From Gallionellales bacterium RIFCSPLOWO2_02_FULL_59_110 (GTDB taxonomy: Bacteria; Pseudomonadota; Gammaproteobacteria; Burkholderiales; Gallionellaceae), in the NCBI GenBank assembly GCA_001801215.1, contig MGXA01000067.1, positions 15,680 through 79,679 of the forward strand: 64,000 bases of DNA. The letters run 5' to 3'. Below the pieces are notes generated by a model that saw only the letters and a list, made by a program, of their open reading frames with translations, did no database searches and was not told the origin of the DNA. Position numbers and translations under genes: made by a program. Shown here in pieces: positions 47,587-64,000 of this stretch. The first letter of the stretch is position 1. Every line of letters begins with the position of its first letter.

Positions 47587-48918
47587 TTATGGCGCTCCCG
47601 AAACGATGAATTCTGGCGCCGGGCCGGGCTGGGGCAGGACGTGATGCCCGACCATCGCCGGGGCAGGTGCCGCGATTGGCCGGCCTGTCGCAGGGCGGCA
47701 TCCGGCGGCGGCCCAGTGTATCCCCATGGCAGACGCCACGATGGGCAGGCGCTTGTAGAAACTGCCGTTCAATTGCGTATAGCGCAGCAGATAGCTCTGG
47801 AAACACTCGAACAAATGCCGATCCGGCCTGGCGTGCTGCGCCTCCTGCCAGAAATCGGCCAGCAGCCCGCCAAAAGTCAACCCCTTCATGTCATAGATGG
47901 CGCTGCCGCAAACCTTGACCGGCGCTCCGTGAAAAAGGGCCGACAAGCCGACTGTGCTGTTGACCACCACCACCCCGCAGGCGAGCTTCAACAAGGTGGG
48001 GAGATGCTGGTCATGAATATAGAAACATCTATCCTCCAGCCCGAGCCGCACGATCCGCTCGGCAATAAACTTTGTGTAGTCGCAATAACCGCGATCCATC
48101 GGGTGGTGCTTGATGACCAGTGCGGTATTTTTGGGCGCATGGGCAGCAAAAGATGTCATCGCTTCGTCGATAAACTGGGCCACCGAATTGAAGCCGGAAT
48201 GCGTATGAATCTGCGCGTCGTTATGCACTTGCAGCGGCACCAGGAAGAAACGTCCGGCAAGCTTGCCGGTCAACCGCGCGGAGACTCCCCGCTCTTTGAA
48301 CGCGTAATATCCCTTGCGCCACAGGGAGCGCAACCAGGGCAATCCTTCCAGCCACGACAAGGGCCGGTGATGCCGGTAATGCGGGAAAAGCGGCTTCAGC
48401 AGGCCTGCCGCAAAGTAATACAGCATCGCCCAGAGCATGGCAAACCAGAAGGTGCTGCCGACCTGTTGCGGCTGTTCGACGGGGGGCATCGGGTTGTTCA
48501 GGTAAAAAATCGGGTTGCGCGGAATCAGCGAATTGCCGTTGGCGCCGAACCGTTCGAGCGTGATGTGGTTCGGCCTGGTATAGCCTTCCTCGAACACGCC
48601 GATTTCCAGCCCGCGCCGCAGGGCGACTTCATGCGCCAGGCGGTGAACCGGGCGGCAATCGCCGAACAGCAGCACCGCGTCGACGTTCAACCGGTCGAGC
48701 AGCACTTCCAGGTACGCCGACCATTCCTCCATGCCGCCGCAGAAGCTGAATGCGTTTGACGGGTAGAAGAGCCAGTCGCCGCCGTTGAAATTCACCTTGA
48801 ACACCTGCGCCCCGGCTTGTTCCAGATCCTTGGCGAACCTCCAGAAGAAAGGCCCGACCGGACCTTGCAGCAGCAATATCCGCTTGCCTCTGAACTGGTT
48901 CAGGCTCGACGTCAGCAT
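47587..48918 (-). CDS. kpsS: Capsule beta-Kdo transferase KpsS
   Basis: ILLLQGPVGPFF, FEEGYTRP..ITLE..G.NGNS, VPLQVHNDAQI, IKHHPMDRG, NSTVGLSAL. Confidence 0.9.
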   Translation of the reverse strand: MLTSSLNQFRGKRILLLQGPVGPFFWRFAKDLEQAGAQVFKVNFNGGDWLFYPSNAFSFCGGMEEWSAYLEVLLDRLNVDAVLLFGDCRPVHRLAHEVALRRGLEIGVFEEGYTRPNHITLERFGANGNSLIPRNPIFYLNNPMPPVEQPQQVGSTFWFAMLWAMLYYFAAGLLKPLFPHYRHHRPLSWLEGLPWLRSLWRKGYYAFKERGVSARLTGKLAGRFFLVPLQVHNDAQIHTHSGFNSVAQFIDEAMTSFAAHAPKNTALVIKHHPMDRGYCDYTKFIAERIVRLGLEDRCFYIHDQHLPTLLKLACGVVVVNSTVGLSALFHGAPVKVCGSAIYDMKGLTFGGLLADFWQEAQHARPDRHLFECFQSYLLRYTQLNGSFYKRLPIVASAMGIHWAAAGCRPATGRPIAAPAPAMVGHHVLPQPGPAPEFIVSGAP

Positions 48919-50383: not shown

Positions 50384-52453
50384 TCATAATTTCAATCTCA
50401 TCATGGTCGAAGCTATCAAGCCCAAGTTGGGATCGGACAGGCGCAGCACCCGGCGCATCGCTTTCCGCCACCACGGCAATCCGTTCCCACACTGCGCCCG
50501 CCATGCCAGCATTTCGTCCAGCGCCCGCTCCGGCGTGGTGAAACAGCCCGTCTCCCGGCTCACGTAAGCGGGATAGAGAATCAATGCTCCCGCCGCCAGT
50601 TCGTCCAGCGACAGGCGGCGCGTACGGCGGGCAACCGGCAGGACATCTGCGGTCAGCCCCCAGCCCGCGTAAAAGGGCTGGCCGTAGCACACCACTCTCT
50701 TGCCGCGCAGCAATGCCTCGAACCCGGTCAGCGATGTCAGCGTGTGGACTTCGTCCACCTGCGGCAACAGTTCTCCCATCGGAACATCCTGCACCACTTC
50801 GTCGCACCAGCGAACGGCGTCCTCCTCGCGCTGCCCCTTGCGGCGCAATCCGGCTATCACATCCGGGTGCGGTTTGTAGATCAGGTACGCTTCCGGGTTG
50901 TCCGCGCGCACCGCGCGCAGCAGATCGAGATTGCGGCGGATGCCGGGCGCTCCGCAAGCCAGCGAGGCATCCGATTCCACCTGCCCCGGCACCAGGATCA
51001 CCCTGCGCATGGTTCCAGGCTCCCGGAGTGGCGGACAGGATGAAGGCCGCTGCCAGCTCGCCACTCCCACGTTGTACTTGGTCAGCCCTTGCGCGACCAT
51101 ACGCTCCCGCAATACCCGCGCACGGTCGAGCAGCGCCGCATCGAAAACCGTCGTTTGCAGGAGATGTTCCAGATCGGATGGCCCGGTTGCATCGTAGTAG
51201 ATGCCGCGCCCGTCCATGACCCACGACAAGGGGCGCACCAGATCCGCCCCCAATCCTACCGAGCGGATGAACCCGTCTTCCAGCCGGATGATGTCTGCCG
51301 CGCAATTTGAAGCAGGCTCTCTCCGCCCCCACACCGCCAGCGTGGCACCCTGCGGCACTGCGGCAACCTTGCGCACAAAGCGCACGGTGCTGCCCTGAAA
51401 GAAACTGCGCACGATAGGTTTTTTGTACATCGAAAATCCCAGAGCATAGATGTCGGCGGGAAACCGCTCGCGCATCCGCCGCTGCATTCCCATCCATTCG
51501 ACCACGCGCTCCGCCTCGCAGCGCCGGCCGGTTTCCGGGTCGATATAACGCGGGTATTCCAGCAGCGTCGCATGCACCAGGTTTTCCAGCGGCGCAGGGC
51601 GGCGGCGCTCCGGCGCCAGCAGGTTGTCCTGCGTAAGCCCCCAGCCGGCATAGAACGGCATACCGAAACAGCGCACCCGCCTGCCCCACAGTAATGCCTC
51701 GAAACCCATTTGCGAGGTGACCGTATAGACCGCCTCGGCATGTTCGATCAGCGACACCGGGTGCGCATCTTCTCCGAGCACCAGCACGCGCGGGTTTTGC
51801 GCAAGCGCGGCGAGGTCGAAATGGCCGCGCTTATGGCCGGCCATCACCTCCGGATGGATTTTGAGCAGCACCGTGCATTCCGGGTTTTCCGCCAGCGCCG
51901 CATCCAGCATACGCTGAAAGCTGGGCGCATCTGCCAGGCCATGGCGGATCGACGCGTCGCCCAGCGTCTGGTCAGCCACCAGCACATAGCGCGCCGGCAG
52001 CCTGCCCGCATATTCGCGCGCATGGTTGTATTTGGACACCCGCGCCGCGCGCCATACGCAGATCAACGCCATAGCGCGGGCGCGCTGCGCTTCCGTGAGC
52101 GGGCGGGCGATCAGCATTTCGAGACGCGAAGGTACGGAGGCGTCGTAGTAGATGCCCCGATCGTCCACCACGACGGAAAGCGGCGGCGACTGCCCGCCCA
52201 TCTCCACCGAGCGGAGAAAGCCGTCTTCGAGGCGCAGCAGGGCCAACCCATGCCGGCTGGCGAAGGCCGAAGCCTCGGCGGCGCTGGGTTTGCGCCCCCA
52301 GGCAATCACTCCCGCGCAGGCGGCCATATCCCGCACTGCGCGGCGGTGTACCGGCGGCGCCCCGAGCAGTTCGCCGAGATTCGGCAGGTTCGCCAACGCG
52401 CGCGAGGTCGCGATCAGCGGAGCCGTTCCGGCCGGAAGAAATAATTCCCGCAA
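50384..52453 (-). CDS. kpsC: Capsule beta-Kdo transferase KpsC
   Basis: Duplicated domain: RLEDGFLRS/RLEDGFIRS, GIYYDA, KIHPE/KPHPD, TSQMGFEAL/TSLTGFEAL, PFYAGWGLT twice. Confidence 0.92.
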   Translation of the reverse strand: MRELFLPAGTAPLIATSRALANLPNLGELLGAPPVHRRAVRDMAACAGVIAWGRKPSAAEASAFASRHGLALLRLEDGFLRSVEMGGQSPPLSVVVDDRGIYYDASVPSRLEMLIARPLTEAQRARAMALICVWRAARVSKYNHAREYAGRLPARYVLVADQTLGDASIRHGLADAPSFQRMLDAALAENPECTVLLKIHPEVMAGHKRGHFDLAALAQNPRVLVLGEDAHPVSLIEHAEAVYTVTSQMGFEALLWGRRVRCFGMPFYAGWGLTQDNLLAPERRRPAPLENLVHATLLEYPRYIDPETGRRCEAERVVEWMGMQRRMRERFPADIYALGFSMYKKPIVRSFFQGSTVRFVRKVAAVPQGATLAVWGRREPASNCAADIIRLEDGFIRSVGLGADLVRPLSWVMDGRGIYYDATGPSDLEHLLQTTVFDAALLDRARVLRERMVAQGLTKYNVGVASWQRPSSCPPLREPGTMRRVILVPGQVESDASLACGAPGIRRNLDLLRAVRADNPEAYLIYKPHPDVIAGLRRKGQREEDAVRWCDEVVQDVPMGELLPQVDEVHTLTSLTGFEALLRGKRVVCYGQPFYAGWGLTADVLPVARRTRRLSLDELAAGALILYPAYVSRETGCFTTPERALDEMLAWRAQCGNGLPWWRKAMRRVLRLSDPNLGLIASTMMRLKL

Positions 52454-52483: not shown

Positions 52484-53152
52484 TCAGGCGGTAGCCCCGG
52501 CCAGCGCCGACCAGTTGAGCTGGAGCCTGTTGTCAGCCTTGTCCGGCCCGATAACACCGTACTCGCACAACAGGTCGATGACCATGGCCACGGATTCCTC
52601 CACGGACTGGCTGCCGGTATCCACCACCAGTTCCGCTCCCTCAGGTTCCTCATAGGGTGAAGAGATGCCGGTGAACTCCTTGATTTCTCCTGCCCGCGCC
52701 CGTTTATACAGCCCCTTCACATCCCGTTGTTCGCACACTTCCAGCGGGCAGCGGCAATAGATTTCGAGGAATTCGCCGTACGGCACCAGCGAGCGCACCC
52801 GCGCGCGATCAGAGCGGAACGGAGAAATAAAGGCGGTCAGCGCGATGACGCCCGCATCCAGGTACAGTTTGGCCAGTTCTCCCGCGCGGCGGATATTCTC
52901 GACGCGGTCTTCGTCGGAAAACCCCAGATCGGAACAAAGCCCGTGGCGCACGTTGTCGCCATCGAAAGTAAAGGTGCGGCAGCCCATCTTGTGCAGATTC
53001 TCCTCGACAGCATGCGCCAGCGTGGATTTTCCCGCGCCGGAAAGCCCGGTGAACCATAAAATCACGCTGCGATGGCCATTCAACTTTTCGCGCGCCGCGC
53101 GGGTCACGGTGGCACGATGCCAGACGATGTTATTAGGTTTAATCGGTTTCAT
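52484..53152 (-). CDS. cysC: Adenylyl-sulfate kinase
   Basis: [50 protein letters not shown]. Confidence 0.95.
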
Positions 53153-53473
53153 TGCATCTCCTTTCGTGAAAATACTTCCTTGCCCATCCGCCGCCAAAGC
53201 ACGGCAGAACCAAACCGCCATGATTCTAAAAAAACAAATTCAGGCCACAGAGCTCACAGAGAACGTCAGTGTTCTTCTCGTTCCCACGGTCTGATGAAAC
53301 TACTAGCCATCTGACCAGGCTGTCCAAAAACGACAGCCTGGTCGCTGGTTATCCGTGAGAACGCATCAAGGGGCGCTCCGCGCCCCGTACCGCAGAGCGG
53401 CACGGCCAGCATTCCCACGCTGAGCTTGGGAACGATGCAACTGCTTTTTCCTGTGATTCTTCATACGCCGCCG

Positions 53474-54469
53474 CTACATCAATTCCGCATAACCGCGCTG
53501 CGCCCTGTCGGCCAACCCGGTCATTTTTTTTTCCGCATTGCCGAACATGGCGCTCCGCTGAGGCTCATCCTGTGCCAGATGCAGGATGGCTTCCACCCAG
53601 GCTTCCGGTTCCTGCGCCACCACCAGCCCATCCACACCGTGGCGGATCACATCCGCGCAGGCGCTGTCCGGCGCATAGATCCCCACCGCGCCGCAGCGGG
53701 TGATGTCGAAAAATTTCGTGTAAGAGCGCGCCCGGTTGAATGGCATATCCAGCAGCGGAACCAGCCCCACGTGCCGCCACGGCATGTCCAGAAACGCCCG
53801 GTAGGCGGGCCACTTCATCGGATGCACCACCGTCGCGCGCTGTACGCCGCGGTACAGGCGATGCACATCCCGGCCACCGGCGACCTCGAAGGCGAGCCGC
53901 TCGTCGCGGCGCAAGGCTTCTTCCACCACCGGACGCAGCCAGCGGATTTCTGCCGCGTGTGAGGCCGTGCCGTGGTAAAAAATCCGGCGCACGTCCGTGC
54001 AACCCGGCGCAGGCGAGGGCAGCACCAGCCGCGGCCGCCAACCGGAATATTTCAGTTGCAGATAAGGCGTCGAAACCCATAGTTCGGCAGCCTGCCGTTG
54101 CAGCCAGCTCGACCGCCAGGTGGCCAGCCGCGCCAGCTTGAAGCGGTAGCGCCACGGCAGCCCGGCGGACGCGCCCACTTCCAGCACATCGTCGTCCATG
54201 AAGAATGCCAGCCTGCGCAGCCGGGGGCGCACCGCCTCCACCAGTTTTGCCCAGGCCGGCGGCACATAGCGCACGAACACCACCGCCGCGCCATCCAGGT
54301 CGGCGGAAGGCGGCAAATCGGCAAAGCCGCAGCGCACCACCCGATGCCTCCCGGCGGAAACTGCCGGAAGCACGAAATAATCCGTGGACGGGTTGCATTG
54401 CTCTTCGACCAGGTAAACGGTGCCCGGAACGCCTTTCTGATGCGAACCTTGCGGGATCAGGTCAGCCAT
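53474..54469 (-). CDS. Putative GT-B glycosyltransferase
   Basis: FVRY, FFMDDD, LVPLLDMPFNRARSYTKFFD..GAVGIY, HGVDGLVV. Start at 54469. Confidence 0.65.
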   Translation of the reverse strand: MADLIPQGSHQKGVPGTVYLVEEQCNPSTDYFVLPAVSAGRHRVVRCGFADLPPSADLDGAAVVFVRYVPPAWAKLVEAVRPRLRRLAFFMDDDVLEVGASAGLPWRYRFKLARLATWRSSWLQRQAAELWVSTPYLQLKYSGWRPRLVLPSPAPGCTDVRRIFYHGTASHAAEIRWLRPVVEEALRRDERLAFEVAGGRDVHRLYRGVQRATVVHPMKWPAYRAFLDMPWRHVGLVPLLDMPFNRARSYTKFFDITRCGAVGIYAPDSACADVIRHGVDGLVVAQEPEAWVEAILHLAQDEPQRSAMFGNAEKKMTGLADRAQRGYAELM

Positions 54470-56751
54470 GATCCCTCCACCAGCGGTGCATTGCTCAGGG
54501 AAAAGTCGGGCCGCTCCTGGCTCAGATTCGGGTTGTAGAACGGGTCGCGCCGCAGCGCGTGCTTCCAGCGCTTGCGCATGTACGCGGCCTCGCGCTTGGC
54601 CAGCCGCACTTTCTCGGCGCTGCGGTTCTTGCCGCGCGACGCAGACTCGCGGTGATACAGCTCGGCATGCGGCGTCCATACCACCCGGTAGCCTGCCTCG
54701 CGCACCCGCAGGCAGAAATCCACGTCGTTGAAAGACACCGGGAGGTAGCGCTCGTCCAGCCCGCCCAATTCTTCATACAGCGCTTTCCGCACCATCAGGC
54801 ATGCTCCGGTGACCGCCGACATATCCTGCGCCAGCAGGGCGCGCCCCTGATAGCCCGGATCGTCGCGCCGCAGGAAGGCATGGGCATGGTTCGCCACGCC
54901 GCCCACGCCGACCAGGTCGCCGCCATGCTGCACCTTGCCGTCCGGATAAAGCAGCTTCGCGCCGACCACGCCGACATCTTTCTGATGCAGCAGGCCGAGC
55001 ATTTCTTCCATCCACTCCGGCGTGATGACTTCGGTGTCGTTATTGAGCAGGCAGAGCACCTGGCCGCGCGCATAGCGCACCGCAAAATTGTTGATTGCCG
55101 GGTAATTGAATGGCCGGTCATGGCGCAGGACTGTCGCGATCTTCCCTGCGGCAAGCGCGTCCAGATAGGCGAGCGTGACCGGATCGGCGGACTGGTTATC
55201 GACCACGATGATTTCATAATGCGGATAACTGCCGAGCCCGCGCAGGCTTTCGATGCAGCGCCGCAGCAAATCCAGCCTGTCGCGGGTCGGGATGATGATG
55301 CTCACCAGCGGCATGTCGGCGGGAATCGCGTAGCGGATGCGGTAACCGCCTGCGCCAGGCACGCCGATAACCTCGCCGCAAATTCCGTTGCGAGCCAGAT
55401 AGGCTTCCCGCATTTGCTTTCCGGCCGCGCAAGGCGTGTTGCCTGCCCATTCCGGCGCGGCTCCGTCCCGGTACGTGCGGCAATGGTAAAGCACTTGGGG
55501 AATGTGGCGGATTTGCCGGACATTTGCCGCCTCGCTCACGCGCAGCGCCAGCTCGCAACTCGCGCCGGTATCCAGCCTGTCTGGAAAACCGCCTGCGGCT
55601 CCAATCGCGTCGGCCCGGAAAACGCACAGGCCGCCGAGGTAATTCTGCGAAAGCAGCAACTGCGGGTTCCAGTCCGGCTTGAAATTGGGCGCGGTGCGCG
55701 CCCCCGCCTCATCGATGCTGTCTTCGTCGGTGTACAGCAGCACCGCATCGGGATATGCCGCCGCCTCCGCCGCGATGCAATACAAGGCACGTTGCGCGAG
55801 CAAGTCGTGTTCGCCCAGTATCCCCAGGTAATCGCCGCTTCTCCGTGCTGCATCCATCGCGGTAGCGCCAACCTGATCCGCTTGCAGGAATCCGGCGCTG
55901 ATCCGCGCGTCGCTCCGGGTAAATTCCCCGAGAACCTCCCTGATGGCGGGATCGCAGTCAGGGGCTGCCGCGATGTGCAGTTCCCAATGCGGATAAATCT
56001 GGGCGCGGACCGACTCGACAGTTGCCGCAAGATATTGGGCATGACCTGCCTGCACGTTCAGCAACAGGGTAATCTTGGGCTGCACCGCCATCTCCGGAAT
56101 ATGCCTTTCCAGTTGCCGGTGCCCGCGTATTCCCGGCGTATCGAAATAGCCGATCCAGCCCTGGTAGTGCGGAGCGCTGGCATGGGCGCGCAACTTGCGC
56201 GCAGCCTGATAGCTGCCCGGCAAATCAATCAGCATGCGGAAAAACCCCAGATCGACAAACTTCCGCTTCCTGGCCGGATGCAGAAAAATCATCGACATGA
56301 CACGCTGCACCATAAGCCAGTACCGCTCCAATACGTTTACCCTGGACAGGGAAAGCAGAGACAGTTCGAATTCTCCCGTTGCACCCACCGGCGACCATTT
56401 CATGCGTTTGACCCCGGCAGGCAGGCAAATCAGTTCGTTGATCTCGCCCCTGCCCGAGGCAGGGATCTCGAAAGACTGCGCTTCGGTAAAACCGGCGCCA
56501 AGGTCGTAATCGAGACGCGCACAACAATTTCCGCCGCGCCGGATCAGCGCACCCCGCAGCAATACCCAGCCGCTGGGGTATCCCTCACCCGGCACCGCGA
56601 CATCAATACAAGCCTTGCCGAATGCCGGCTTCCCGTGGTCGTCAGGCATGCCGGCTTCCGGGAAATCGCCATCCGGGAGCAAACGGGCAGCCAGACCTGG
56701 TGTTTTTCCGCCTCGGATCATTGATCGCTCCATGTTTGACTCGTTCATCAT
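54457..56751 (-). CDS. GT2 glycosyltransferase (two GT-A domains)
   Basis: LYTDED, NFKPDW, VSIIIPTRD, VVDNQS, LLNNDTEV, VGAKLLY, SAVTGACL, NDVDFCL. Confidence 0.88.
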   Translation of the reverse strand: MMNESNMERSMIRGGKTPGLAARLLPDGDFPEAGMPDDHGKPAFGKACIDVAVPGEGYPSGWVLLRGALIRRGGNCCARLDYDLGAGFTEAQSFEIPASGRGEINELICLPAGVKRMKWSPVGATGEFELSLLSLSRVNVLERYWLMVQRVMSMIFLHPARKRKFVDLGFFRMLIDLPGSYQAARKLRAHASAPHYQGWIGYFDTPGIRGHRQLERHIPEMAVQPKITLLLNVQAGHAQYLAATVESVRAQIYPHWELHIAAAPDCDPAIREVLGEFTRSDARISAGFLQADQVGATAMDAARRSGDYLGILGEHDLLAQRALYCIAAEAAAYPDAVLLYTDEDSIDEAGARTAPNFKPDWNPQLLLSQNYLGGLCVFRADAIGAAGGFPDRLDTGASCELALRVSEAANVRQIRHIPQVLYHCRTYRDGAAPEWAGNTPCAAGKQMREAYLARNGICGEVIGVPGAGGYRIRYAIPADMPLVSIIIPTRDRLDLLRRCIESLRGLGSYPHYEIIVVDNQSADPVTLAYLDALAAGKIATVLRHDRPFNYPAINNFAVRYARGQVLCLLNNDTEVITPEWMEEMLGLLHQKDVGVVGAKLLYPDGKVQHGGDLVGVGGVANHAHAFLRRDDPGYQGRALLAQDMSAVTGACLMVRKALYEELGGLDERYLPVSFNDVDFCLRVREAGYRVVWTPHAELYHRESASRGKNRSAEKVRLAKREAAYMRKRWKHALRRDPFYNPNLSQERPDFSLSNAPLVEGSWLT

Positions 56752-57770: not shown

Positions 57771-58733
57771 TCACTGCTCCCAATCTATGTTCAATGTCCT
57801 GGCAAACTCGGGCGCCCCGAATACCCCCACGGTCACCCTGTCGCCTTTTTCGGCGCCAATCAGCGCAAGCGGATAGCTGAACCCGCACAGCGGGTTATCG
57901 GACAATCCCATGTCGTAAATATCGTCCCGGTTCTGATCCAGCGAAATGACGGCCCGCCTTTCGCCGTTCACACCGATCGTCACGAAGTAACAATCCGTCG
58001 CGGCGCAGGATATCCAGCCAACGATTTTTTTCCTCCCGGCGAGCAGGCAATTCCAGTTGGTATCCTCCGTCGGGACGGTGTTGTAGCCCGCATCCTTGAC
58101 CAGCTCGGAAAAAATGCGCACTTGCTCGAAGAAAAAATCCATGTCCCGCTTGTTATTGAGAAAGGCTGACTTTATTTCGCCCGGCGGAATATTGGCTCTG
58201 CTCTCGGCATCGGAGTCGGGCGCTTTATTTTTCGCTACCGGCTCTATCGGCAATCCGAGCCTGTCTACAAACGCTTCGACAAAATATTTGTAATGGCTCG
58301 TCAAACCGATCAGTGCGCCGGTCTTCCGATCCAGCCCCCTGAGCATCTTCCACTGCTTGTTCTGCTGGAGCGGATCCGAAGAAAAATCCGCAAAACTGCG
58401 ATGGCACCCTTCATGTCTCCTGAGGTGCTGATACTCGGAAACCACCCGTTCTACCGGGTTCCTGACGATAGACACCACCGCATCCGGCGGAACGCAACGC
58501 AAATATTTTTCATAAGGGACATGCCCGCAGATGAAATTGAATTTATCGGCATCGAATATTTCGCTCTCCGGAGCCAATTCCGTGGGGGTTACCCCGACCA
58601 GTCCGGGAGTAGATTCAGGGCTTTCTTTTCCGTAGTCATAGAGCATGCGAACCGATTTGTGCTTCTGAAGCACGGAACGAAAGCTGGTTCCGGCCGTTTT
58701 GGGGATATGGACAACAAAATTTATTTTTTTCAT
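57771..58733 (-). CDS. Sulfotransferase family protein
   Basis: 5'-PSB HIPKTAGTS and 3'-PB VRNPVERVVSEY; AAGGA RBS before ATG 58733. Confidence 0.85.
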   Translation of the reverse strand: MKKINFVVHIPKTAGTSFRSVLQKHKSVRMLYDYGKESPESTPGLVGVTPTELAPESEIFDADKFNFICGHVPYEKYLRCVPPDAVVSIVRNPVERVVSEYQHLRRHEGCHRSFADFSSDPLQQNKQWKMLRGLDRKTGALIGLTSHYKYFVEAFVDRLGLPIEPVAKNKAPDSDAESRANIPPGEIKSAFLNNKRDMDFFFEQVRIFSELVKDAGYNTVPTEDTNWNCLLAGRKKIVGWISCAATDCYFVTIGVNGERRAVISLDQNRDDIYDMGLSDNPLCGFSYPLALIGAEKGDRVTVGVFGAPEFARTLNIDWEQ

Positions 58734-58796
58734 GGCGGTTTTCCTTGAAATCATCTGCTTCAGGCAGTTCGCTAAATTCATGGCTTATTCGACAGG

Positions 58797-59825
58797 CTAT
58801 TGCGTGGTGCACAGGGCGCGCCAACTTTGCTGGTCTATAGCCTGCTCACCCATTTTTCCAATACGGACAAGTTGGCGGCCAAACTCCAATACCGTGCGCA
58901 TCGCCGGATAATCATTGCCAGTAGCGGTTTCGGGAATAGTCGCCTGCGGGTTAGGAAACCAGCTTGCGATGATAAAATCGCCCGGTGTGCCTTGCGCACC
59001 TAGATAACACTGTTGCGCCAGCAGAACCCGTTCATGGAACGCCTTGCTGGAAATTCTGCCCCCTTTGCTCGAGGTGGTCAGCAGGCCAAACCTCAGTCCC
59101 AGAATATCTTCCACATAAGATTCGACATCCCTGATGTGTTGCCATGTGACGCCGAGCGACTGCTCCTTGAGAATATCGAAGGGTATGTCCAGATGGATAT
59201 ACGAAAGCTCCATCTTTTCTGCGGCCATGGCATCCCTGAGCATAAGGTAAGGTTGCCGGTAGTCTTTGCCATGCGACGGAAGGGCATCGATAATGCCGAT
59301 TTGAACCTGCGGATAAATTGCGCGGACAGCCTTGGCGTAGGCGACGACATCTTCAACTCTCCAGCTCACGGGATAATCCACCGTTTCGCCATTGATCACC
59401 AAAGGTTTCGATAGCACGCTTTGCAGGCTGATGTAGTCGACCTGGATATCCAGGCGCTTGAGGCGCTTGAGCAAGCTGATTTCCCTGGAAGAAATTTTTT
59501 CCTGCCCTTCCAGCTGCGTCCAGGTTGCACCCGCTGCATCTATCGCCAGTTTGATGCGATTTCTGTCGAGATAGGGGCGCAATAAATTAGCCAGAAATTC
59601 TTCATCCATTGTGCCCAGCACATTGGCCCTTACCATATAGACCCGAATGTAACGGCTTGCCTGGCTGAACGCTTCCGGCTGATGAAATTTCTCGACAAAA
59701 TCCGGCGGCATGCCGCCGGGCCTGCCGAGGTTGTTGTCTTCGTACCAGATATCCGTAGCCGCAGCGGTTGCGGAGATGACCGCGAACATCAGGGCGATCA
59801 GGATTTTCGCTTGAGCACGCATCAT
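58797..59825 (-). CDS. Hypothetical secreted protein in the capsule locus
   Basis: Signal peptide (ILIALMFAVISATAAA); family not recognised. Confidence 0.65.
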   Translation of the reverse strand: MMRAQAKILIALMFAVISATAAATDIWYEDNNLGRPGGMPPDFVEKFHQPEAFSQASRYIRVYMVRANVLGTMDEEFLANLLRPYLDRNRIKLAIDAAGATWTQLEGQEKISSREISLLKRLKRLDIQVDYISLQSVLSKPLVINGETVDYPVSWRVEDVVAYAKAVRAIYPQVQIGIIDALPSHGKDYRQPYLMLRDAMAAEKMELSYIHLDIPFDILKEQSLGVTWQHIRDVESYVEDILGLRFGLLTTSSKGGRISSKAFHERVLLAQQCYLGAQGTPGDFIIASWFPNPQATIPETATGNDYPAMRTVLEFGRQLVRIGKMGEQAIDQQSWRALCTTQ

Positions 59826-62800
59826 ATTCCCTCCAAAGAAAAATCTTCCCTAGCCAGCGTCAGATTCGGGCTGTAGCATGGATCGCGCCGCAACAGTTCG
59901 CCCCATTTGGCCTTCACGAACTCGACTTCCTTGTTGAACCGCTTGACCTTTTCCGGCGTATCCTCTTCTCCGCGCGACTTCGATTCGTAATGGAATAGTT
60001 CCGCGTAGGGAGTCCAGAGGTTGCGGTACCCCGCCTGGCATACCTTGAGACAGAAATCCACGTCGTTGAAGGCGATGCGCAGGCCGTCTTCCTCCAATCC
60101 GCCCACCTCTTCATAGATTGACTTGCGCACAACCAGACAGGCGGCCGTCACCGCCGACAGGTTCTGGATCACTTTCAGGCGGTGGAAGTATCCGGACGAT
60201 TCGCGCGGGAAGTATTTATGCGAATGCCCAGCCACGCCGCCCAGCCCGACGATCACTCCGGCATGCTGGATGGTTTCGTCTTCGTAATACAGCTTGGCGC
60301 CCACGCAGCCGATCTCGGGACGCAAGGCGTGGCTGACCAACTCGCTCAGCCATTCGGGGCTGATGACTTCGATGTCGTTGTTGACCAGGCCGATCAGTTC
60401 GCCTCTGGCTTGCTGCACGCCAAAATTGTTGATGGCGGAGTAGTTGAAAGGCTGGTGATAGGCCAGCACCCTCACCCGGCTGTCCTCTGCCTGGATGCGC
60501 TTGAAAAAATCCAGCGTCGCGGGCTCGCTGCTTTCGTTATCCAGGATGATGATTTCGCAATTCCGGTAGGTGGTTTTGTCGAGAATGCTGCGCATGCAAG
60601 GCTCGATCAGCTCGACCTTGTCGCGGGTCGGGATGAGCAAACTGACCAGCGGCTCCGGTTGCGGAATGGAATAGCGAACCCGGTAGGTATTGGGCACCAG
60701 CCCGTTTTCCACCTTCACGCCCTCCCGGCCTTGCGCGCTGAAATAGTCCTGCAAAACTTTGATGCCAGCTTCGGTGGTGTAGCTTTTTTCCCCGCAGGCG
60801 CGCGCGGTGGACCCTTCCACGATGCGCCAGTGGTAAAGCACCTTGGGGATATGCACGATATCGGCGGGGCTCACATGGGGCAGGCAACGCAACAGCAGGT
60901 CCTGATCCTGGCTACCCTCAACTCCGGTGCGGAAACCGCCGATGCGTTGCAGCAACTCGCGGCGATAAATGCCCAGATGCGAAATATAGTTCTGCGAGAA
61001 GAACAGGTCGGGGTTCCAGTCCGGCTTGAAATGCGGGTCTTTGCGGTTGCCCTGCTCGTCGATCTTGTCTTCGTCGCTGTAGAGAATCTGCGCGGAAGGG
61101 TTTTGATTGATCGCTTCCACCGCGAAATACAGGGCGTGGCGCGCCAGTTCGTCGTCGTGATCCAGCAACGCCACATACTCGCCGGTTGCCAGCGCCAGGG
61201 CGCTGTTGCTGGCCGCGGAAATGTGGCCGTTCTCCTCGCGGAAGGCCACCTTGATGCGCGGGTCGCGCTGCATGTATTCTTCGAGCACCGCCCGCACATG
61301 CGGCGCGGTCGAGGCGTCGTCGGCGATACACAGCTCCCAGTGAGGATAGCCCTGCACCAGCACCGATTCGATCGCCTGCCGCAGAAGATTCTCTGCGGTG
61401 TTGTACACCGGCATGGCCACTGAAACCGTCGGTCTAAGCTTGAACGACTCCGGCAGCGCCGCGAGCGCGTCCAGACTGAAAAACTCCGGTGCTTCGACCC
61501 GGGATATCCACTCTTCGTAGCCGATGCCGATGCCGGCCTGCCCGCTATCGACACGGAAAGTGTGGCTGTAATATTGGGAAAGCAACTCTTTGGCGGCAAC
61601 TTTCTTGGTCTTCTCCTGCGCCTGCAAGTCCCGCCAAATCATGCGGAGAGGCATATCCTGGTAATGCGCATAACGGTTGCGCAGGCGCTGCAGCATGCGG
61701 TGATATGCAAAAATCGGCAGCACCGGCGCAAAGTTGAGAAGTTTCACGGAAAATCTGGCCGTCCCTTCAAGAGGGTCGAAGCGGATTTGTTTGGGAACGC
61801 TGGGCAGATGGCATAAGCGCTTGGATTCCTTGCCATCCCGAAACGGCAAGATCACCGAAGCCCACTCGCTGTAACCCTCGCCATAATCGAAATACAGCTT
61901 CGCGTTGCCGCGCGCGGCGTCCGAACATATCTGCAATTCGATCATGTACCAGCCGGGGCGCAGCTTCCGGTTGATATCCCGCAACACGAACCACGGGTCT
62001 TCTCCCTCCGAGCGCCAGCAGTAAGCGCCCTCGCCTTGGCGCTGCACGCCGTTTACCGGTTCGAGCGCGGTAGCGTTGCCTTGCCGCCCGCCGAGAGCCT
62101 CGTATGCGCCGTACTGAGCAAGGAACTCCGCCGGCAACTCCGGCGCCCCTGCCAATTTTTTCAGGCCCTGTACGGATAAGCGGAATTTTGCCGGCACATC
62201 GAACAGATCGAGGCGGATGGCGCGGCATCCGGGCGGGACAAAAAGAGGAATCCGCTGCGCGCCGTTACCGGAAAATTGCAGGCCGATGGCCGGCAAAAGG
62301 TTGAACCCATCGCCGGTGTCGAAGAGCATTTGAGCCGCCAATGGTCGCTCTGCCACCATCTCCACGTCCAGCCAGTACCAGCCGGTCAGGCCATGCCAGG
62401 CGCGTTCGGCCATCAGCAGGAATTGGGCATCGCCCCCGGCCGCCAACCATTCCTGCCCGTCGCGTTGCAACAAGTCGAGCGGCGCCAGGCCGATGCCGTG
62501 CTTGCGGGTAAGTCTGGGTAATAAACCTTTGACCATCCGCGCCGGTTTGAAAAGTTTCCATCCCACGGAAGCACGCGCCTGCGTAAGGCGATGCTCGTGC
62601 TGAATTGTGCCGGCACGCAATTGCTGGATGGCGGTATTTTGCCTGGCGCCGTTTTGCAGCAGCGCTTCGATCCGGCCATCCCGCTCGGCGATTCCCTGAT
62701 TGAGCACTGCCATCTGCGCCTCGCGCTCGGCCATGCTCTGGCTTAGCACAGCTATCTGCGCCTCGCGCTGGGCCACGCTCTGGCTTAGCACAGCTATCTG

Positions 62801-64000
62801 CGCCTCGCGTTCTTCGGAGGTTTGCATCATGGCCTCGATCCATGCATCGCGCTCATTCATGCCCTGGCTGAGCGCCGTTAACTGCGCCTCGTATTCTCCG
62901 GCCATTTGCGTCAACGCTTTAATTTTGCCGTCGCGCTCGGCCATGCCCTGATCGAACGCGGCCATGCGCGCCTCGCACTCCCCTGCCGTTTGGGCCAGCA
63001 TTGCAATCCGGTCGTCCCGCTCCGCAATACCCAGAACGAGCGCGGCCACCCCGGCTTTATGCTCTTCAAGCATTTGTGCCTGCGTTTCAATCCGGTCATC
63101 GCGTTCGGCCATGCCCTGGGTGAACACAGCCATTTTGGCTTTGTATTCGCTTATGGTTTTCGTCAGCGTCTCTATAATGCCGTCGCGCTCGGCGATGCCC
63201 AGGTTCAGCGCTTCGACGCTGCCATTCCGCCCGGCCACCCCAGCTTTATGCTCTTCAACCATTTGTGACAGCATTTCAATCCGGTCATCGCGTTCGGCCA
63301 TGCCCTGGGTGAGCGTAGCCATCTGTGCTCTGCGCTCCCTTGCCGCTTCCGTCAGCACCTCAATCTTGTCATCGCGCTCGGCGACGCCCAGGCTCAGCGC
63401 TTCGACGCTGCCATTCCGCTCGGACAGGGAATGGCTCATGGCGAGAATGATGTTATCCAGCCGCAGCATGTAATCCATGGCCTGCGCCATCCCTGCCACC
63501 TGTTCGGCAAGATTCAGGAAAACTCCGTAAACCTTTTCCGAATCCAGGCTCAGCCGGTCTGCCGCAACCTCGGCCAACAGCATGACCGCCGACCTGACGG
63601 GGTTGGGAACCAGCGGGGATTCGAGGACATCTTCGGGTTTGTAATTGGCGTGGCGCAGATTGGCGTCCAGAAAGTCCCGGCTGAATTCGGCCAGCCGGAT
63701 AGGATCCAGTTTGCAATCCAGCCCCAATGCCATGGCCATCCTGGCAATCTGTTGTTGCGGGTTGTCCATCAGCAGGTCGTAATCTACCAGCACCCGGCGC
63801 GCCCCTTGCGTGAGAAGCACGCTGGGCAGGACATGCTGTAGCCAGAGATAGTGGCTCTTTTCGGCAGGAATCCTGTCCCTTGCTTCCAGGGACTTGGCCA
63901 CGCTGAGCGGATTCCTGGCCGCTATGACATAAAACACCCTGATTTGCAGATGCTCGAAAACTCTTTGCCAGAATGGCAAGAGGCGGCACATGCGCGGATC
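59822..64000 (-). CDS. Multidomain polysaccharide protein: P-loop/sulfotransferase-like domain, long coiled coil, beta-sandwich-like domains, two GT2 domains (5' end outside window)
   Basis: Frame open to the edge (DPRMCRLLPFW...RNPLSVAKSL); heptad repeats; GT2 motifs VAMPVYNT, IADDAS, LLDHDDEL, YSDEDKI, LLIPTRD, LVNNDIEV, NDVDFCL. Confidence 0.88.
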   Translation of the reverse strand, partial: DPRMCRLLPFWQRVFEHLQIRVFYVIAARNPLSVAKSLEARDRIPAEKSHYLWLQHVLPSVLLTQGARRVLVDYDLLMDNPQQQIARMAMALGLDCKLDPIRLAEFSRDFLDANLRHANYKPEDVLESPLVPNPVRSAVMLLAEVAADRLSLDSEKVYGVFLNLAEQVAGMAQAMDYMLRLDNIILAMSHSLSERNGSVEALSLGVAERDDKIEVLTEAARERRAQMATLTQGMAERDDRIEMLSQMVEEHKAGVAGRNGSVEALNLGIAERDGIIETLTKTISEYKAKMAVFTQGMAERDDRIETQAQMLEEHKAGVAALVLGIAERDDRIAMLAQTAGECEARMAAFDQGMAERDGKIKALTQMAGEYEAQLTALSQGMNERDAWIEAMMQTSEEREAQIAVLSQSVAQREAQIAVLSQSMAEREAQMAVLNQGIAERDGRIEALLQNGARQNTAIQQLRAGTIQHEHRLTQARASVGWKLFKPARMVKGLLPRLTRKHGIGLAPLDLLQRDGQEWLAAGGDAQFLLMAERAWHGLTGWYWLDVEMVAERPLAAQMLFDTGDGFNLLPAIGLQFSGNGAQRIPLFVPPGCRAIRLDLFDVPAKFRLSVQGLKKLAGAPELPAEFLAQYGAYEALGGRQGNATALEPVNGVQRQGEGAYCWRSEGEDPWFVLRDINRKLRPGWYMIELQICSDAARGNAKLYFDYGEGYSEWASVILPFRDGKESKRLCHLPSVPKQIRFDPLEGTARFSVKLLNFAPVLPIFAYHRMLQRLRNRYAHYQDMPLRMIWRDLQAQEKTKKVAAKELLSQYYSHTFRVDSGQAGIGIGYEEWISRVEAPEFFSLDALAALPESFKLRPTVSVAMPVYNTAENLLRQAIESVLVQGYPHWELCIADDASTAPHVRAVLEEYMQRDPRIKVAFREENGHISAASNSALALATGEYVALLDHDDELARHALYFAVEAINQNPSAQILYSDEDKIDEQGNRKDPHFKPDWNPDLFFSQNYISHLGIYRRELLQRIGGFRTGVEGSQDQDLLLRCLPHVSPADIVHIPKVLYHWRIVEGSTARACGEKSYTTEAGIKVLQDYFSAQGREGVKVENGLVPNTYRVRYSIPQPEPLVSLLIPTRDKVELIEPCMRSILDKTTYRNCEIIILDNESSEPATLDFFKRIQAEDSRVRVLAYHQPFNYSAINNFGVQQARGELIGLVNNDIEVISPEWLSELVSHALRPEIGCVGAKLYYEDETIQHAGVIVGLGGVAGHSHKYFPRESSGYFHRLKVIQNLSAVTAACLVVRKSIYEEVGGLEEDGLRIAFNDVDFCLKVCQAGYRNLWTPYAELFHYESKSRGEEDTPEKVKRFNKEVEFVKAKWGELLRRDPCYSPNLTLAREDFSLEGI
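62590..63440 (-). repeat. Coding tandem repeats (14-aa units, 63-aa super-repeat) forming a coiled coil
   Basis: 42-bp unit ctggcttagcacagctatctgcgcctcgcg repeated near 62738-62810; cgcttcgacgctgccattccgc recurs 189 bp apart (~63210 and ~63399). Confidence 0.8.

What the first reader, a model, noticed from the sequence alone, without database searches (positions are those of the whole stretch)
59822..64000. One-polypeptide polymerase-ruler-terminator candidate with a sulfotransferase-like cap domain
Seen: an N-terminal DPRxCRLLPFW...RNPLSVA.SL domain, ~280 residues of heptad repeats (about 40 nm at ~0.15 nm per residue), beta-rich modules, then two GT2 domains. Known: E. coli O9a WbdD and Raoultella WbbB use a coiled coil as a molecular ruler between polymerase and a chain-terminating enzyme (phosphate/methyl or Kdo). 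Inference: chain length set by a ruler and terminated by sulfation (or phosphorylation), in a Kdo-linked capsule where length control is poorly understood.
Basis: partly seen in the sequence, partly recalled or inferred. Interest (0 to 1): 0.66.

Follow-up and report, generated by a model that had tools for sequence, protein, structure and literature searches.

The report
Sulfotransferase-tipped coiled-coil capsule polymerase

Summary
The ORF (minus strand, stop at 59822) runs past the window end. The full protein has 1,509 aa.

Its parts, in order:
- A PAPS-type sulfotransferase (ST) domain. The missing N-terminus carries GMHRSGTS, and R146-x7-S154 is present. The AF2 model has pLDDT 93, and its best fold matches are all PAPS sulfotransferases.
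- An uninterrupted 43-heptad coiled coil of 301 aa (about 45 nm).
- A cationic amphipathic segment.
- Two homologous beta-sandwiches.
- Two GT2 domains resembling the capsule polymerases K4CP and PmHS2.

The locus is Kps-type (KpsMTED, KpsC, KpsS). It also holds an APS kinase and a second, stand-alone ST.

Comparative evidence favours the ruler-terminator reading:
- Orthologues differ only in coil length (63-406 aa).
- In 52 of 69 family members the coil spacing is a whole number of heptads.
- The same scaffold occurs with a methyltransferase cap instead of the ST.
- In 20 of 38 related loci that hold an exporter ATPase, it is a Wzt with a C-terminal extension. This was Wzt_C, the cap-reading module, in 6 of 6 tested.
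- The Aeromonas salmonicida "WbbB" carries this ST domain, yet its published O-antigen repeat has no sulfate.

Here KpsT has no such module, and no sulfate terminator has been shown experimentally. Verdict: a new variant of a known kind, and its function is untested.

The parts
63473..64000 (-). Sulfotransferase domain (protein residues 1-293). Only residues 118-293 lie in the window. Residues 1-117 lie beyond the window end, at window-equivalent 64001-64351 (contig C67 79680-80030).
   Evidence: GMHRSGTS (residues 20-27) and R146-x7-S154 are invariant in 84 homologues. AF2 pLDDT is 93.3. Top Foldseek PDB hits are PAPS sulfotransferases at probability 1.0. Pfam Sulfotransfer_3 is only sub-threshold (E 0.039, full profile length).
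62570..63472 (-). Coiled coil of 43 uninterrupted heptads (residues 294-594, about 45 nm if fully extended).
   Evidence: No proline. One register holds throughout, with position a 86% I/V/M/L and position d alternating L and R. DNA tandem repeats have periods of 42 and 189 nt, both multiples of 21. Coil length varies from 63 to 406 aa among orthologues while the flanking domains stay constant.
62501..62569 (-). Conserved S-x-G-W-K motif and cationic amphipathic segment (residues 595-617), a candidate in-plane membrane anchor or docking site at the polymerase end of the coil.
   Evidence: The motif S-x-S/G-W-R/K-x-x-x-P-x-R is conserved across the family. KLFKPARMVKGLLPRLTR has the highest helical hydrophobic moment in the protein (z = 3.4) and a net charge of +6. 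AF2 confidence is low here. The function is inferred.
62156..62494 (-). Beta-sandwich domain 1 (residues about 620-732).
   Evidence: AF2 strands, pLDDT about 80-90. Homologous to domain 2 (hhalign probability 99.1%, E 8.7e-19). No relation to Wzt_C was detected.
61721..62065 (-). Beta-sandwich domain 2 (residues about 763-877).
   Evidence: No Pfam family. Found in only 42 proteins, always together with the dual-GT2 module.
61445..61717 (-). Helical linker (residues about 879-969).
   Evidence: AF2 helices.
60800..61426 (-). GT2 domain 1 (residues about 976-1184), with DHDD and DEDK motifs.
   Evidence: Pfam PF00535 at 977-1137. PDB sequence hit to chondroitin polymerase K4CP, E 1.5e-21. The acidic motifs are invariant in 48 sequences.
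59885..60646 (-). GT2 domain 2 (residues about 1236-1489).
   Evidence: Second PF00535 stretch. PDB sequence hit to heparosan synthase at residues 1232-1335. Foldseek top hits are K4CP and PmHS2.
57771..58781 (-). Stand-alone carbohydrate sulfotransferase (336 aa) in the same operon.
   Evidence: HIPKTAGTS and RNPVERVVS motifs. Pfam Sulfotransfer_2 E 3.6e-4.
52484..53221 (-). APS kinase (PAPS supply).
   Evidence: Pfam PF01583 E 3.9e-66. It is one of two copies in the genome.
50384..52453 (-). KpsC (beta-Kdo linker transferase).
   Evidence: Pfam Capsule_synth E 2.3e-88.
47587..48918 (-). KpsS.
   Evidence: Pfam Capsule_synth E 1.4e-84.
54457..56751 (-). 764-aa paralogue of the polymerase module: a beta-sandwich-like N-terminus, a first GT2 that looks degenerate, and an intact second GT2.
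   Evidence: 42.6% identity to the C-terminal 538 aa of the 1,509-aa protein. Pfam GT2. Sequence inspected.

Best explanation
The gene encodes a single-polypeptide capsule assembly enzyme of the WbbB / K. pneumoniae O7-ORF6 type.

Proposed mechanism:
- The two C-terminal GT2 domains polymerise the backbone on the KpsS/KpsC-made Kdo-lipid primer at the membrane. They are probably held there by the cationic amphipathic segment at the base of the coil.
- A continuous 43-heptad coiled coil projects the N-terminal PAPS-dependent sulfotransferase about 45 nm into the cytoplasm.
- When the growing non-reducing end becomes long enough to reach that domain, it is sulfated on the hydroxyl needed for further extension. 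Elongation then stops, so coil length sets the modal chain length.

Shown here: the domain identities, intact PAPS motifs, a continuous heptad register, coil-only and heptad-quantised length variation, the Kps context, and PAPS supply.

Inferred: sulfation occurs at the chain terminus, sulfation blocks extension, the base of the coil is membrane-anchored, and the coil oligomerises.
For: (1) Sulfotransferase identity.
- H22, R23, G25, T26, S27, K117, P119, R146 and S154 are invariant in 84 homologues.
- AF2 pLDDT is 93.3.
- All top PDB fold hits are PAPS sulfotransferases.
- APS kinase lies in the locus and near many relatives.

(2) Rigid spacer.
- 43 heptads run in one register.
- Among orthologues the N-terminal domain (297-312 aa) and the C-terminal part (905-915 aa) are constant, while the coil ranges from 57 to 400 aa between the anchors (63-406 with the anchors).
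- Across 69 diverse family members the anchor-to-anchor distance is a multiple of 7 in 52 (about 10 expected by chance). By distinct values, 28 of 45 lengths are multiples of 7.
- DNA repeat periods of 42 and 189 nt preserve the heptad phase.

(3) Cap-module swapping.
- The same coil, beta-sandwich and dual-GT2 scaffold, also in a Kps locus, carries a CmcI/Methyltransf_24-like O-methyltransferase in place of the sulfotransferase (P0123).
- Methyl is an established terminator chemistry (PMC11231755).

(4) Association of the family with cap-reading exporters.
- In 20 of 38 related loci that hold an exporter ATPase, that protein has a C-terminal extension of 200 aa or more. In 14 of these it lies directly upstream on the same strand.
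- The extension was Wzt_C in 6 of 6 tested.

(5) Aeromonas salmonicida.
- Its 'WbbB' (1,122 aa) has this sulfotransferase domain, a coil, a GT4 and a GT2, and sits next to Wzt-Wzt_C.
- It is required for O-antigen, and no sulfate is seen in the repeat unit (PMC4483657). This fits a substoichiometric terminal cap.

(6) Polymerase end.
- The dual GT2 resembles the bifunctional Kps-capsule polymerases K4CP and PmHS2.
- The strongest amphipathic cationic segment of the protein sits exactly at the polymerase end of the coil.
Against: - No experiment in any organism shows sulfate acting as a chain terminator.
- KpsT here is 221 aa with no CBM, so the quality-control half of the prototype mechanism is absent.
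- The locus has a second, stand-alone sulfotransferase and its own APS kinase. Both would also fit bulk in-chain sulfation, as in the sulfated Kps capsules of Cobetia and Vibrio (PMC11766843, PMC11641403).
- Oligomeric state and membrane anchoring are not established. AF2 confidence at residues 585-615 is low.
- 17 of 69 family members do not fit the heptad rule with my anchors.
- The Pfam sulfotransferase model is matched only below threshold.
Confidence: 0.6

Rival explanations
1. The N-terminal sulfotransferase decorates the polymer in-chain, on each or many repeats. The coiled coil serves only to oligomerise or scaffold the synthase complex, and chain length is set, as assumed for other Kps capsules, by the balance of synthesis and export.
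For: - Sulfated capsules with in-chain sulfate are known from Kps-type loci (PMC11766843, PMC11641403).
- The locus has a dedicated APS kinase and a second sulfotransferase.
- KpsT has no cap-reading module.
Against: - A 45-nm rigid rod places the sulfotransferase far from the polymerase active sites.
- A scaffold role does not explain a 6-fold variation in coil length in strict heptad steps with both ends conserved.
- It does not explain the swap to a methyltransferase cap, or the frequent pairing of the family with Wzt_C exporters.
- A. salmonicida has the domain but no in-chain sulfate is reported (PMC4483657).
Confidence: 0.25
2. The sulfotransferase domain modifies something other than the polymer's growing end, for example the Kdo linker or primer, a side branch, or another molecule. 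Alternatively it is catalytically silent here and retained for structure.
For: - Some orthologues have degenerate PAPS loops but keep the coil: P0017 (GAHASGAE), P0022 (GMYRSGVG), and P0143/P0144.
- Acceptor specificity cannot be read from the sequence.
Against: - In this protein all invariant PAPS-site residues are intact.
- The Kdo primer is at the membrane, at the opposite end of the rod from the sulfotransferase.
Confidence: 0.1
3. The N-terminal domain is a P-loop kinase or another nucleotide-dependent enzyme, and the cap is phosphate. This is the alternative the first reader left open.
For: - A few P-loop kinases (PFKFB, adenylate kinase) appear far down the fold-search list.
- The Pfam sulfotransferase match is sub-threshold.
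Against: - The loop is GMHRSGTS without the Walker A lysine.
- The R-x7-S 3'-phosphate motif is invariant.
- The top 21 fold hits are all sulfotransferases.
- APS kinase genes co-occur in many loci.
Confidence: 0.03

Closest known systems
WbbB of Klebsiella pneumoniae O12 / Raoultella terrigena (single-protein terminator, coiled-coil ruler and polymerase; as summarised in PMC11231755)
   Same: One polypeptide with an N-terminal terminating enzyme, an extended coiled coil and two C-terminal polymerising GT modules, in an ABC-transporter-dependent pathway.
   Different: - The cap enzyme is a PAPS sulfotransferase, not a GT99 beta-Kdo transferase.
- The GT modules are two GT2 domains preceded by two beta-sandwiches.
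- The acceptor is a KpsS/KpsC Kdo-lipid, not Und-PP.
- The exporter is KpsMT without a CBM.
ORF6 of K. pneumoniae O7 (methyltransferase-kinase, Ig-like domain, coiled coil, two GT2 modules; PMC11231755)
   Same: An N-terminal small-group-transfer terminator, a coil and two C-terminal GT2 modules, with further GTs supplied by separate proteins. A beta-sandwich domain is present in the protein.
   Different: - The cap is methyl-phosphate, not sulfate.
- The O7 Ig-like domain lies on the terminator side of the coil, whereas the two beta-sandwiches here lie on the polymerase side.
- O7 is an O-antigen system whose export requires the terminal cap, and the paper describes a Wzt CBM as common to all terminated OPS examples.
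WbdD of E. coli O9a/O8 (kinase-methyltransferase on a coiled-coil ruler that recruits the polymerase WbdA)
   Same: The catalytic cap domain is distal, the coiled coil acts as a ruler, and a membrane-associated amphipathic region lies at the far end of the coil.
   Different: The polymerase is a separate protein in that system. Stand-alone sulfotransferase-coil proteins of about 390-400 aa next to Wzt with a long C-terminal extension (L026, L061, L067) are the closer analogues of WbdD than the window's fused protein.
K4CP chondroitin polymerase and PmHS2 heparosan synthase (bifunctional dual-GT2 polymerases of Kps-type capsules)
   Same: Two GT-A/GT2 domains in tandem in a Kps capsule locus. 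They are the best structural matches to the C-terminal half.
   Different: They have no coiled coil, no cap enzyme and no known length-control element.
Aeromonas salmonicida 'WbbB' (ORF20 of the wbsalmo cluster, PMC4483657)
   Same: It carries the same sulfotransferase domain (GMHRSGTS, KDPR, R-x7-S) followed by a coil and GT modules.
   Different: Its modules are GT4 plus GT2, it belongs to an O-antigen Wzm/Wzt-Wzt_C system, and the paper did not recognise its N-terminal domain as a sulfotransferase.

Membership tests
Coiled-coil ruler / chain-terminator systems of ABC-transporter-dependent glycans (WbdD, WbbB, O7-ORF6) | An extended coiled coil in the protein that carries the terminator. | tested here: met
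   43 uninterrupted heptads at residues 294-594. AF2 shows the helix starting at residue 289.
Coiled-coil ruler / chain-terminator systems of ABC-transporter-dependent glycans (WbdD, WbbB, O7-ORF6) | A terminating enzyme at the end of the coil distal to the polymerase. | tested here: inconclusive
   A sulfotransferase with an intact PAPS site sits at the distal end. Whether it terminates chains was not testable.
Coiled-coil ruler / chain-terminator systems of ABC-transporter-dependent glycans (WbdD, WbbB, O7-ORF6) | Polymerising GT modules at, or recruited to, the other end of the coil. | tested here: met
   Two GT2 domains are C-terminal to the coil.
Coiled-coil ruler / chain-terminator systems of ABC-transporter-dependent glycans (WbdD, WbbB, O7-ORF6) | An ABC transporter ATPase with a C-terminal CBM (Wzt_C) that reads the cap. 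| tested here: not met
   KpsT is 221 aa and consists only of the nucleotide-binding domain. In relatives, 20 of 38 loci with an ATPase show a long C-terminal extension, and it was Wzt_C in 6 of 6 tested.
Coiled-coil ruler / chain-terminator systems of ABC-transporter-dependent glycans (WbdD, WbbB, O7-ORF6) | Chain length depends on coil length. | not testable with these tools
   Only indirect evidence is available: natural coil lengths of 63-406 aa in heptad steps, with constant ends.
WbbB family proper | An N-terminal GT99 beta-Kdo transferase. | tested here: not met
   The N-terminal domain has a sulfotransferase fold. No GT99 or Kdo-transferase match was found.
PAPS-dependent sulfotransferase superfamily | A 5'-phosphosulfate-binding loop and a 3'-phosphate-binding R-x7-S motif on the sulfotransferase fold. 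| tested here: met
   GMHRSGTS and R146...S154 are invariant. Foldseek matches OLS/CurM ST, TPST2, SULTs and 3-OST at probability 1.0.
PAPS-dependent sulfotransferase superfamily | A match to a curated family model above threshold (Pfam Sulfotransfer_1, _2 or _3). | tested here: not met
   Sulfotransfer_3 scores 14.7 bits against a cut-off of 27, although the match covers positions 3-213 of the 216-position profile.
Group 2-like (Kps) ABC-transporter-dependent capsule system | KpsM, KpsT, KpsE (PCP-3), KpsD (OPX), and the KpsC and KpsS Kdo transferases. | tested here: met
   Pfam gives ABC2_membrane, ABC_tran, Poly_export/SLBB, and Capsule_synth twice. The KpsE assignment rests only on position and size. 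The orthologous locus L004 is syntenic.
Bifunctional dual-GT2 capsule polymerases (K4CP / PmHS2 type) | Two GT-A domains in tandem, each with conserved acidic motifs. | tested here: met
   Pfam finds two stretches. D480, H481, D482, D483 and N740, N741, D742 (fragment numbering) are invariant in 48 sequences. Top fold hits are K4CP and PmHS2.

The most novel reading that the evidence does not exclude
Kps-type (group 2-like) capsules, for which no chain-length determinant is known, can use a heptad-quantised coiled-coil ruler with a sulfate cap or, in sister loci, a methyl cap. This would work without any cap-reading CBM on the exporter. Natural length variation would arise by gain and loss of heptad-phase DNA repeats, making capsule thickness an evolvable, genetically 'dialled' trait.
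Probability: 0.45. Interest if true: 0.75.

Novelty: new variant of a known kind. Interest (0 to 1): 0.6.

Why it matters
A 2025 review (PMC12220298) states that chain length in ABC-transporter-dependent capsules is only 'presumed' to result from the balance of synthesis and export, and that a controlling factor is 'yet to be identified'. This protein gives a concrete, testable candidate: change the number of heptads, or inactivate the PAPS loop, and read the chain length.

It would also add sulfate to the short list of proven chain-terminating caps (methyl, methyl-phosphate, Kdo).

The cap domain belongs to a very large, uncharacterised family:
- 13,427 clusters at 50% identity have E <= 1e-10.
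- Pfam does not capture it above threshold.
- It is usually annotated simply as 'glycosyltransferase'.

For glycoengineering, a cap plus a swappable rod would offer a way to set polymer length.

Tried and rejected
- **Sequence search of PDB with the N-terminal domain alone:** no hits, even at E <= 10. The fold search was needed.
- **Are the two beta-sandwiches an in-cis equivalent of the Wzt_C cap reader?** Profile-profile comparison gave no relation (probability 0.1% and 0.7%), so I make no CBM claim. Foldseek on the 925-aa model is dominated by GT2 hits and could not address the beta domains.
- **Literature:** four searches found no paper describing a sulfotransferase terminator or a ruler in Kps capsules; a fifth found none either but surfaced the 2025 review PMC12220298. 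The census by Mann, Kimber and Whitfield (Glycobiology 2019), which by my recollection predicted 'new chemistries', is not held. I cannot say whether it lists sulfotransferases.
- **A. salmonicida heptad rule:** with my anchors the spacing is 141 aa (1 mod 7) and the anchor alignment is uncertain, so I left it out of the statistic.
- **Organism identity:** not pursued. The nearest named relatives of the locus are Ramlibacter MAGs.
- **ORF length as a proxy for a Wzt CBM:** rejected, because high-GC ORFs over-extend upstream (for example L039). I used the C-terminal extension beyond the nucleotide-binding-domain alignment instead.
Full report
**1. What is there**

The finding lies on the minus strand. 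The frame is open from the stop at 59822 to the window end. The window is C67:15680-79679 of a 2.8-Mb, 112-contig genome, and the contig continues. The complete ORF occupies contig positions 75501-80030 (window-equivalent 59822-64351) and encodes 1,509 aa starting MNADKLQNPAGEKSIFVVLGMHRSGTS. Orthologues start at the same place. Its stop overlaps the start of the next gene at 59825.

**2. Domain anatomy**

*(a) Residues 1-293, sulfotransferase domain.*
- Pfam gives only a sub-threshold Sulfotransfer_3 match over the whole profile (E 0.039). PDB sequence search gives nothing.
- An alignment of 84 homologues shows H22, R23, G25, T26, S27, K117, P119, R146 and S154 to be invariant. These form the 5'-phosphosulfate loop and the R-x7-S 3'-phosphate motif of PAPS sulfotransferases. 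That reading rests on my own knowledge of the SULT and TPST families.
- AF2 with that alignment gives pLDDT 93.3 and pTM 0.90.
- The top 21 Foldseek PDB hits are all PAPS sulfotransferases at probability 1.0: the olefin-synthase and CurM ST domains, TPST2, cytosolic SULTs and HS 3-OST.

*(b) Residues 294-594, coiled coil.*
- The region is 301 residues, exactly 43 heptads, in one register.
- Position a is 86% I/V/M/L, position d alternates Leu and Arg, and there is no proline.
- At 0.1485 nm per residue this is about 45 nm.
- The DNA holds tandem repeats of 42 and 189 nt, which are 2 and 9 heptads.

*(c) Residues 595-617, motif at the base of the coil.*
- The conserved S-x-G-W-K-L-F-K-P-x-R motif is followed by KLFKPARMVKGLLPRLTR.
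- That segment has the largest helical hydrophobic moment in the protein (z = 3.4) and a net charge of +6.
- I infer an in-plane membrane anchor or docking site. AF2 confidence is low there.

*(d) Residues about 620-732 and 763-877, beta-sandwiches.*
- AF2 shows two beta-sandwiches.
- They are homologous to each other (hhalign 99.1%) and show no detectable relation to Wzt_C.

*(e) Residues about 976-1184 and 1236-1489, GT2 domains.*
- Two GT2 domains are found.
- The best sequence and fold matches are the dual-GT2 capsule polymerases K4CP and PmHS2.
- The acidic motifs are invariant in 48 sequences.

**3. Context**

The operon, in order, holds:
- KpsM, KpsT (221 aa), a KpsE-sized protein and KpsD
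- an RmlA-like nucleotidyltransferase
- the 1,509-aa gene
- a 342-aa protein with a signal peptide
- a 336-aa stand-alone sulfotransferase (HIPKTAGTS, RNPVERVVS)
- a 339-aa protein
- a 764-aa paralogue of the polymerase module (42.6% identity)
- a GT1
- APS kinase
- KpsC

KpsS follows further on. This is a Kdo-linked Kps capsule locus with its own PAPS supply. The sulfotransferase domain is single-copy in the genome. A second APS kinase lies on another contig. A 79%-identical orthologue sits in a syntenic locus (L004).

**4. Comparative tests of the ruler-terminator idea**

*(i) Length variation lies only in the coil.* Among orthologues the N-terminal domain is 297-312 aa and the part from the SxGWK motif to the end is 905-915 aa. 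The coil between them ranges from 57 to 400 aa.

*(ii) The spacing is quantised in heptads.*
- I measured from a conserved Tyr at the end of the sulfotransferase domain to the S-x-S/G-W-R/K motif.
- The distance is a multiple of 7 in 52 of 69 diverse family members. These proteins share 42-82% identity in the sulfotransferase domain and carry quite different GT sets. Lengths range from 42 to 406 aa.
- By distinct values, 28 of 45 lengths are multiples of 7, against about 6 expected.
- Both ends are therefore held in a fixed angular phase across a rod of very variable length. A rigid measuring spacer should behave this way, and a flexible linker should not.

*(iii) The cap domain is exchangeable.*
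- The same coil, beta-sandwich and dual-GT2 scaffold occurs with an N-terminal CmcI/Methyltransf_24-like methyltransferase (P0123). It sits directly after KpsT, KpsE and KpsD.
- It also occurs with a coil alone, again in a Kps locus.
- Methylation is a proven terminator chemistry (PMC11231755).

*(iv) The sulfotransferase family is large and usually N-terminal.*
- 13,427 clusters at 50% identity have E <= 1e-10.
- At least 576 loci were found among GTDB species representatives.
- The domain is fused to GT2, GT4, RgpF and WbsX modules in many combinations.

*(v) Relatives pair with cap-reading exporters.*
- In the 80 fetched loci, 38 hold a Wzt/KpsT-type ATPase within 10 kb.
- In 20 of these the ATPase has a C-terminal extension of 200 aa or more. 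In 14 it lies directly upstream on the same strand.
- The extension is Wzt_C in 6 of 6 tested.
- According to PMC11231755, a coiled-coil terminator together with a CBM-bearing Wzt is the hallmark of capped glycans.
- Some loci carry only a sulfotransferase plus a coil (about 390-400 aa: L026, L061, L067), which resembles WbdD.

*(vi) Aeromonas salmonicida.*
- The published A. salmonicida 'WbbB' (1,122 aa) begins with this same sulfotransferase domain, followed by a coil, a GT4 and a GT2, and lies next to Wzt-Wzt_C.
- The paper shows the gene is required for O-antigen and remarks that no sulfate is found in the O-antigen structure (PMC4483657).
- A substoichiometric terminal cap would explain both observations. 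The paper did not recognise the N-terminal domain as a sulfotransferase.

**5. What remains against it**
- KpsT in this locus has no CBM, so termination, if real, is not coupled to export in the prototype way. A minority of relatives are likewise Kps-type (L032-L035, L039) or have CBM-less Wzt.
- The second sulfotransferase and the APS kinase would also suit in-chain sulfation, which is known in the Kps capsules of Cobetia and Vibrio.
- No sulfate terminator has been demonstrated anywhere in the literature I could search. The 2019 census by Mann et al. could not be read.
- Some orthologues have degenerate PAPS loops.

**6. Known versus new**

The mechanism class is known (WbdD, WbbB, O7-ORF6; PMC11231755). 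It differs here in three ways: the cap enzyme is a sulfotransferase, the context is a KpsMT/KpsCS capsule without a CBM, and a tandem beta-sandwich module lies between the coil and the polymerase.

A 2025 review says the length determinant of ABC-transporter-dependent capsules is unknown (PMC12220298).

Earlier notes of this scan list about 60 sightings of the same sulfotransferase-coil-GT class in other genomes, all read as an 'untested sulfate cap'. They are leads and not evidence, but they agree that the class is widespread and uncharacterised.

**7. Verdict**

I rate it a new variant of a known kind, with confidence in the terminator-ruler mechanism of about 0.6 and interest of 0.6.

Noticed in passing
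window 57771-58781 (-): A stand-alone 336-aa carbohydrate sulfotransferase with clear HIPKTAGTS and RNPVERVVS motifs, matched only weakly by Pfam. It is a second sulfation activity in the operon and a candidate for in-chain sulfation. A. salmonicida also pairs a stand-alone sulfotransferase (L071:3202-3960) with its ST-coil protein.
   Followed up: partly
window 54457-56751 (-): A 764-aa paralogue of the polymerase half (42.6% identity). Its N-terminus resembles the beta-sandwich module. Its first GT2 appears degenerate (HIAAAPD for CIADDAS, GEHDL for DHDD) and its second GT2 is intact.
   Followed up: partly
window 58797-59825 (-): A 342-aa protein with an N-terminal signal peptide and no family match. 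Its start overlaps the stop of the 1,509-aa gene. It is conserved in the orthologous locus (341 aa in L004).
   Followed up: no
window 62501-62569 (-); also family-wide: The motif S-x-S/G-W-R/K-x-T-x-P-L-R marks the C-terminal end of the coil in very different ST-coil-GT proteins. In most of them it lies a whole number of heptads from a conserved Tyr. Its role (membrane anchor or docking site) is unknown.
   Followed up: partly
L071:4047-7415 (Aeromonas salmonicida ATCC 33658): The published 'WbbB' N-terminal domain, described as a 'capsule polysaccharide biosynthesis' domain, is in fact this PAPS-type sulfotransferase domain (GMHRSGTS, KDPRLCRLLPFW, R-x7-S).
   Followed up: partly
proteins P0017, P0022, P0143, P0144 (orthologues): Some orthologues keep the coil and polymerase but have degenerate PAPS loops (GAHASGAE, GMYRSGVG, GTGGIGSK). 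These may be inactive cap domains.
   Followed up: no
genome contig C16:4902-5354 (-): A second APS kinase gene lies outside the capsule locus. Its context was not examined.
   Followed up: no
window 53474-54679 (-): The 401-aa GT1 ORF overlaps the end of the 764-aa gene by about 220 nt, and its first 70 or so residues look non-coding (rich in Arg, Ala and Pro). The true start is probably further downstream, since the orthologue has 334 aa.
   Followed up: no
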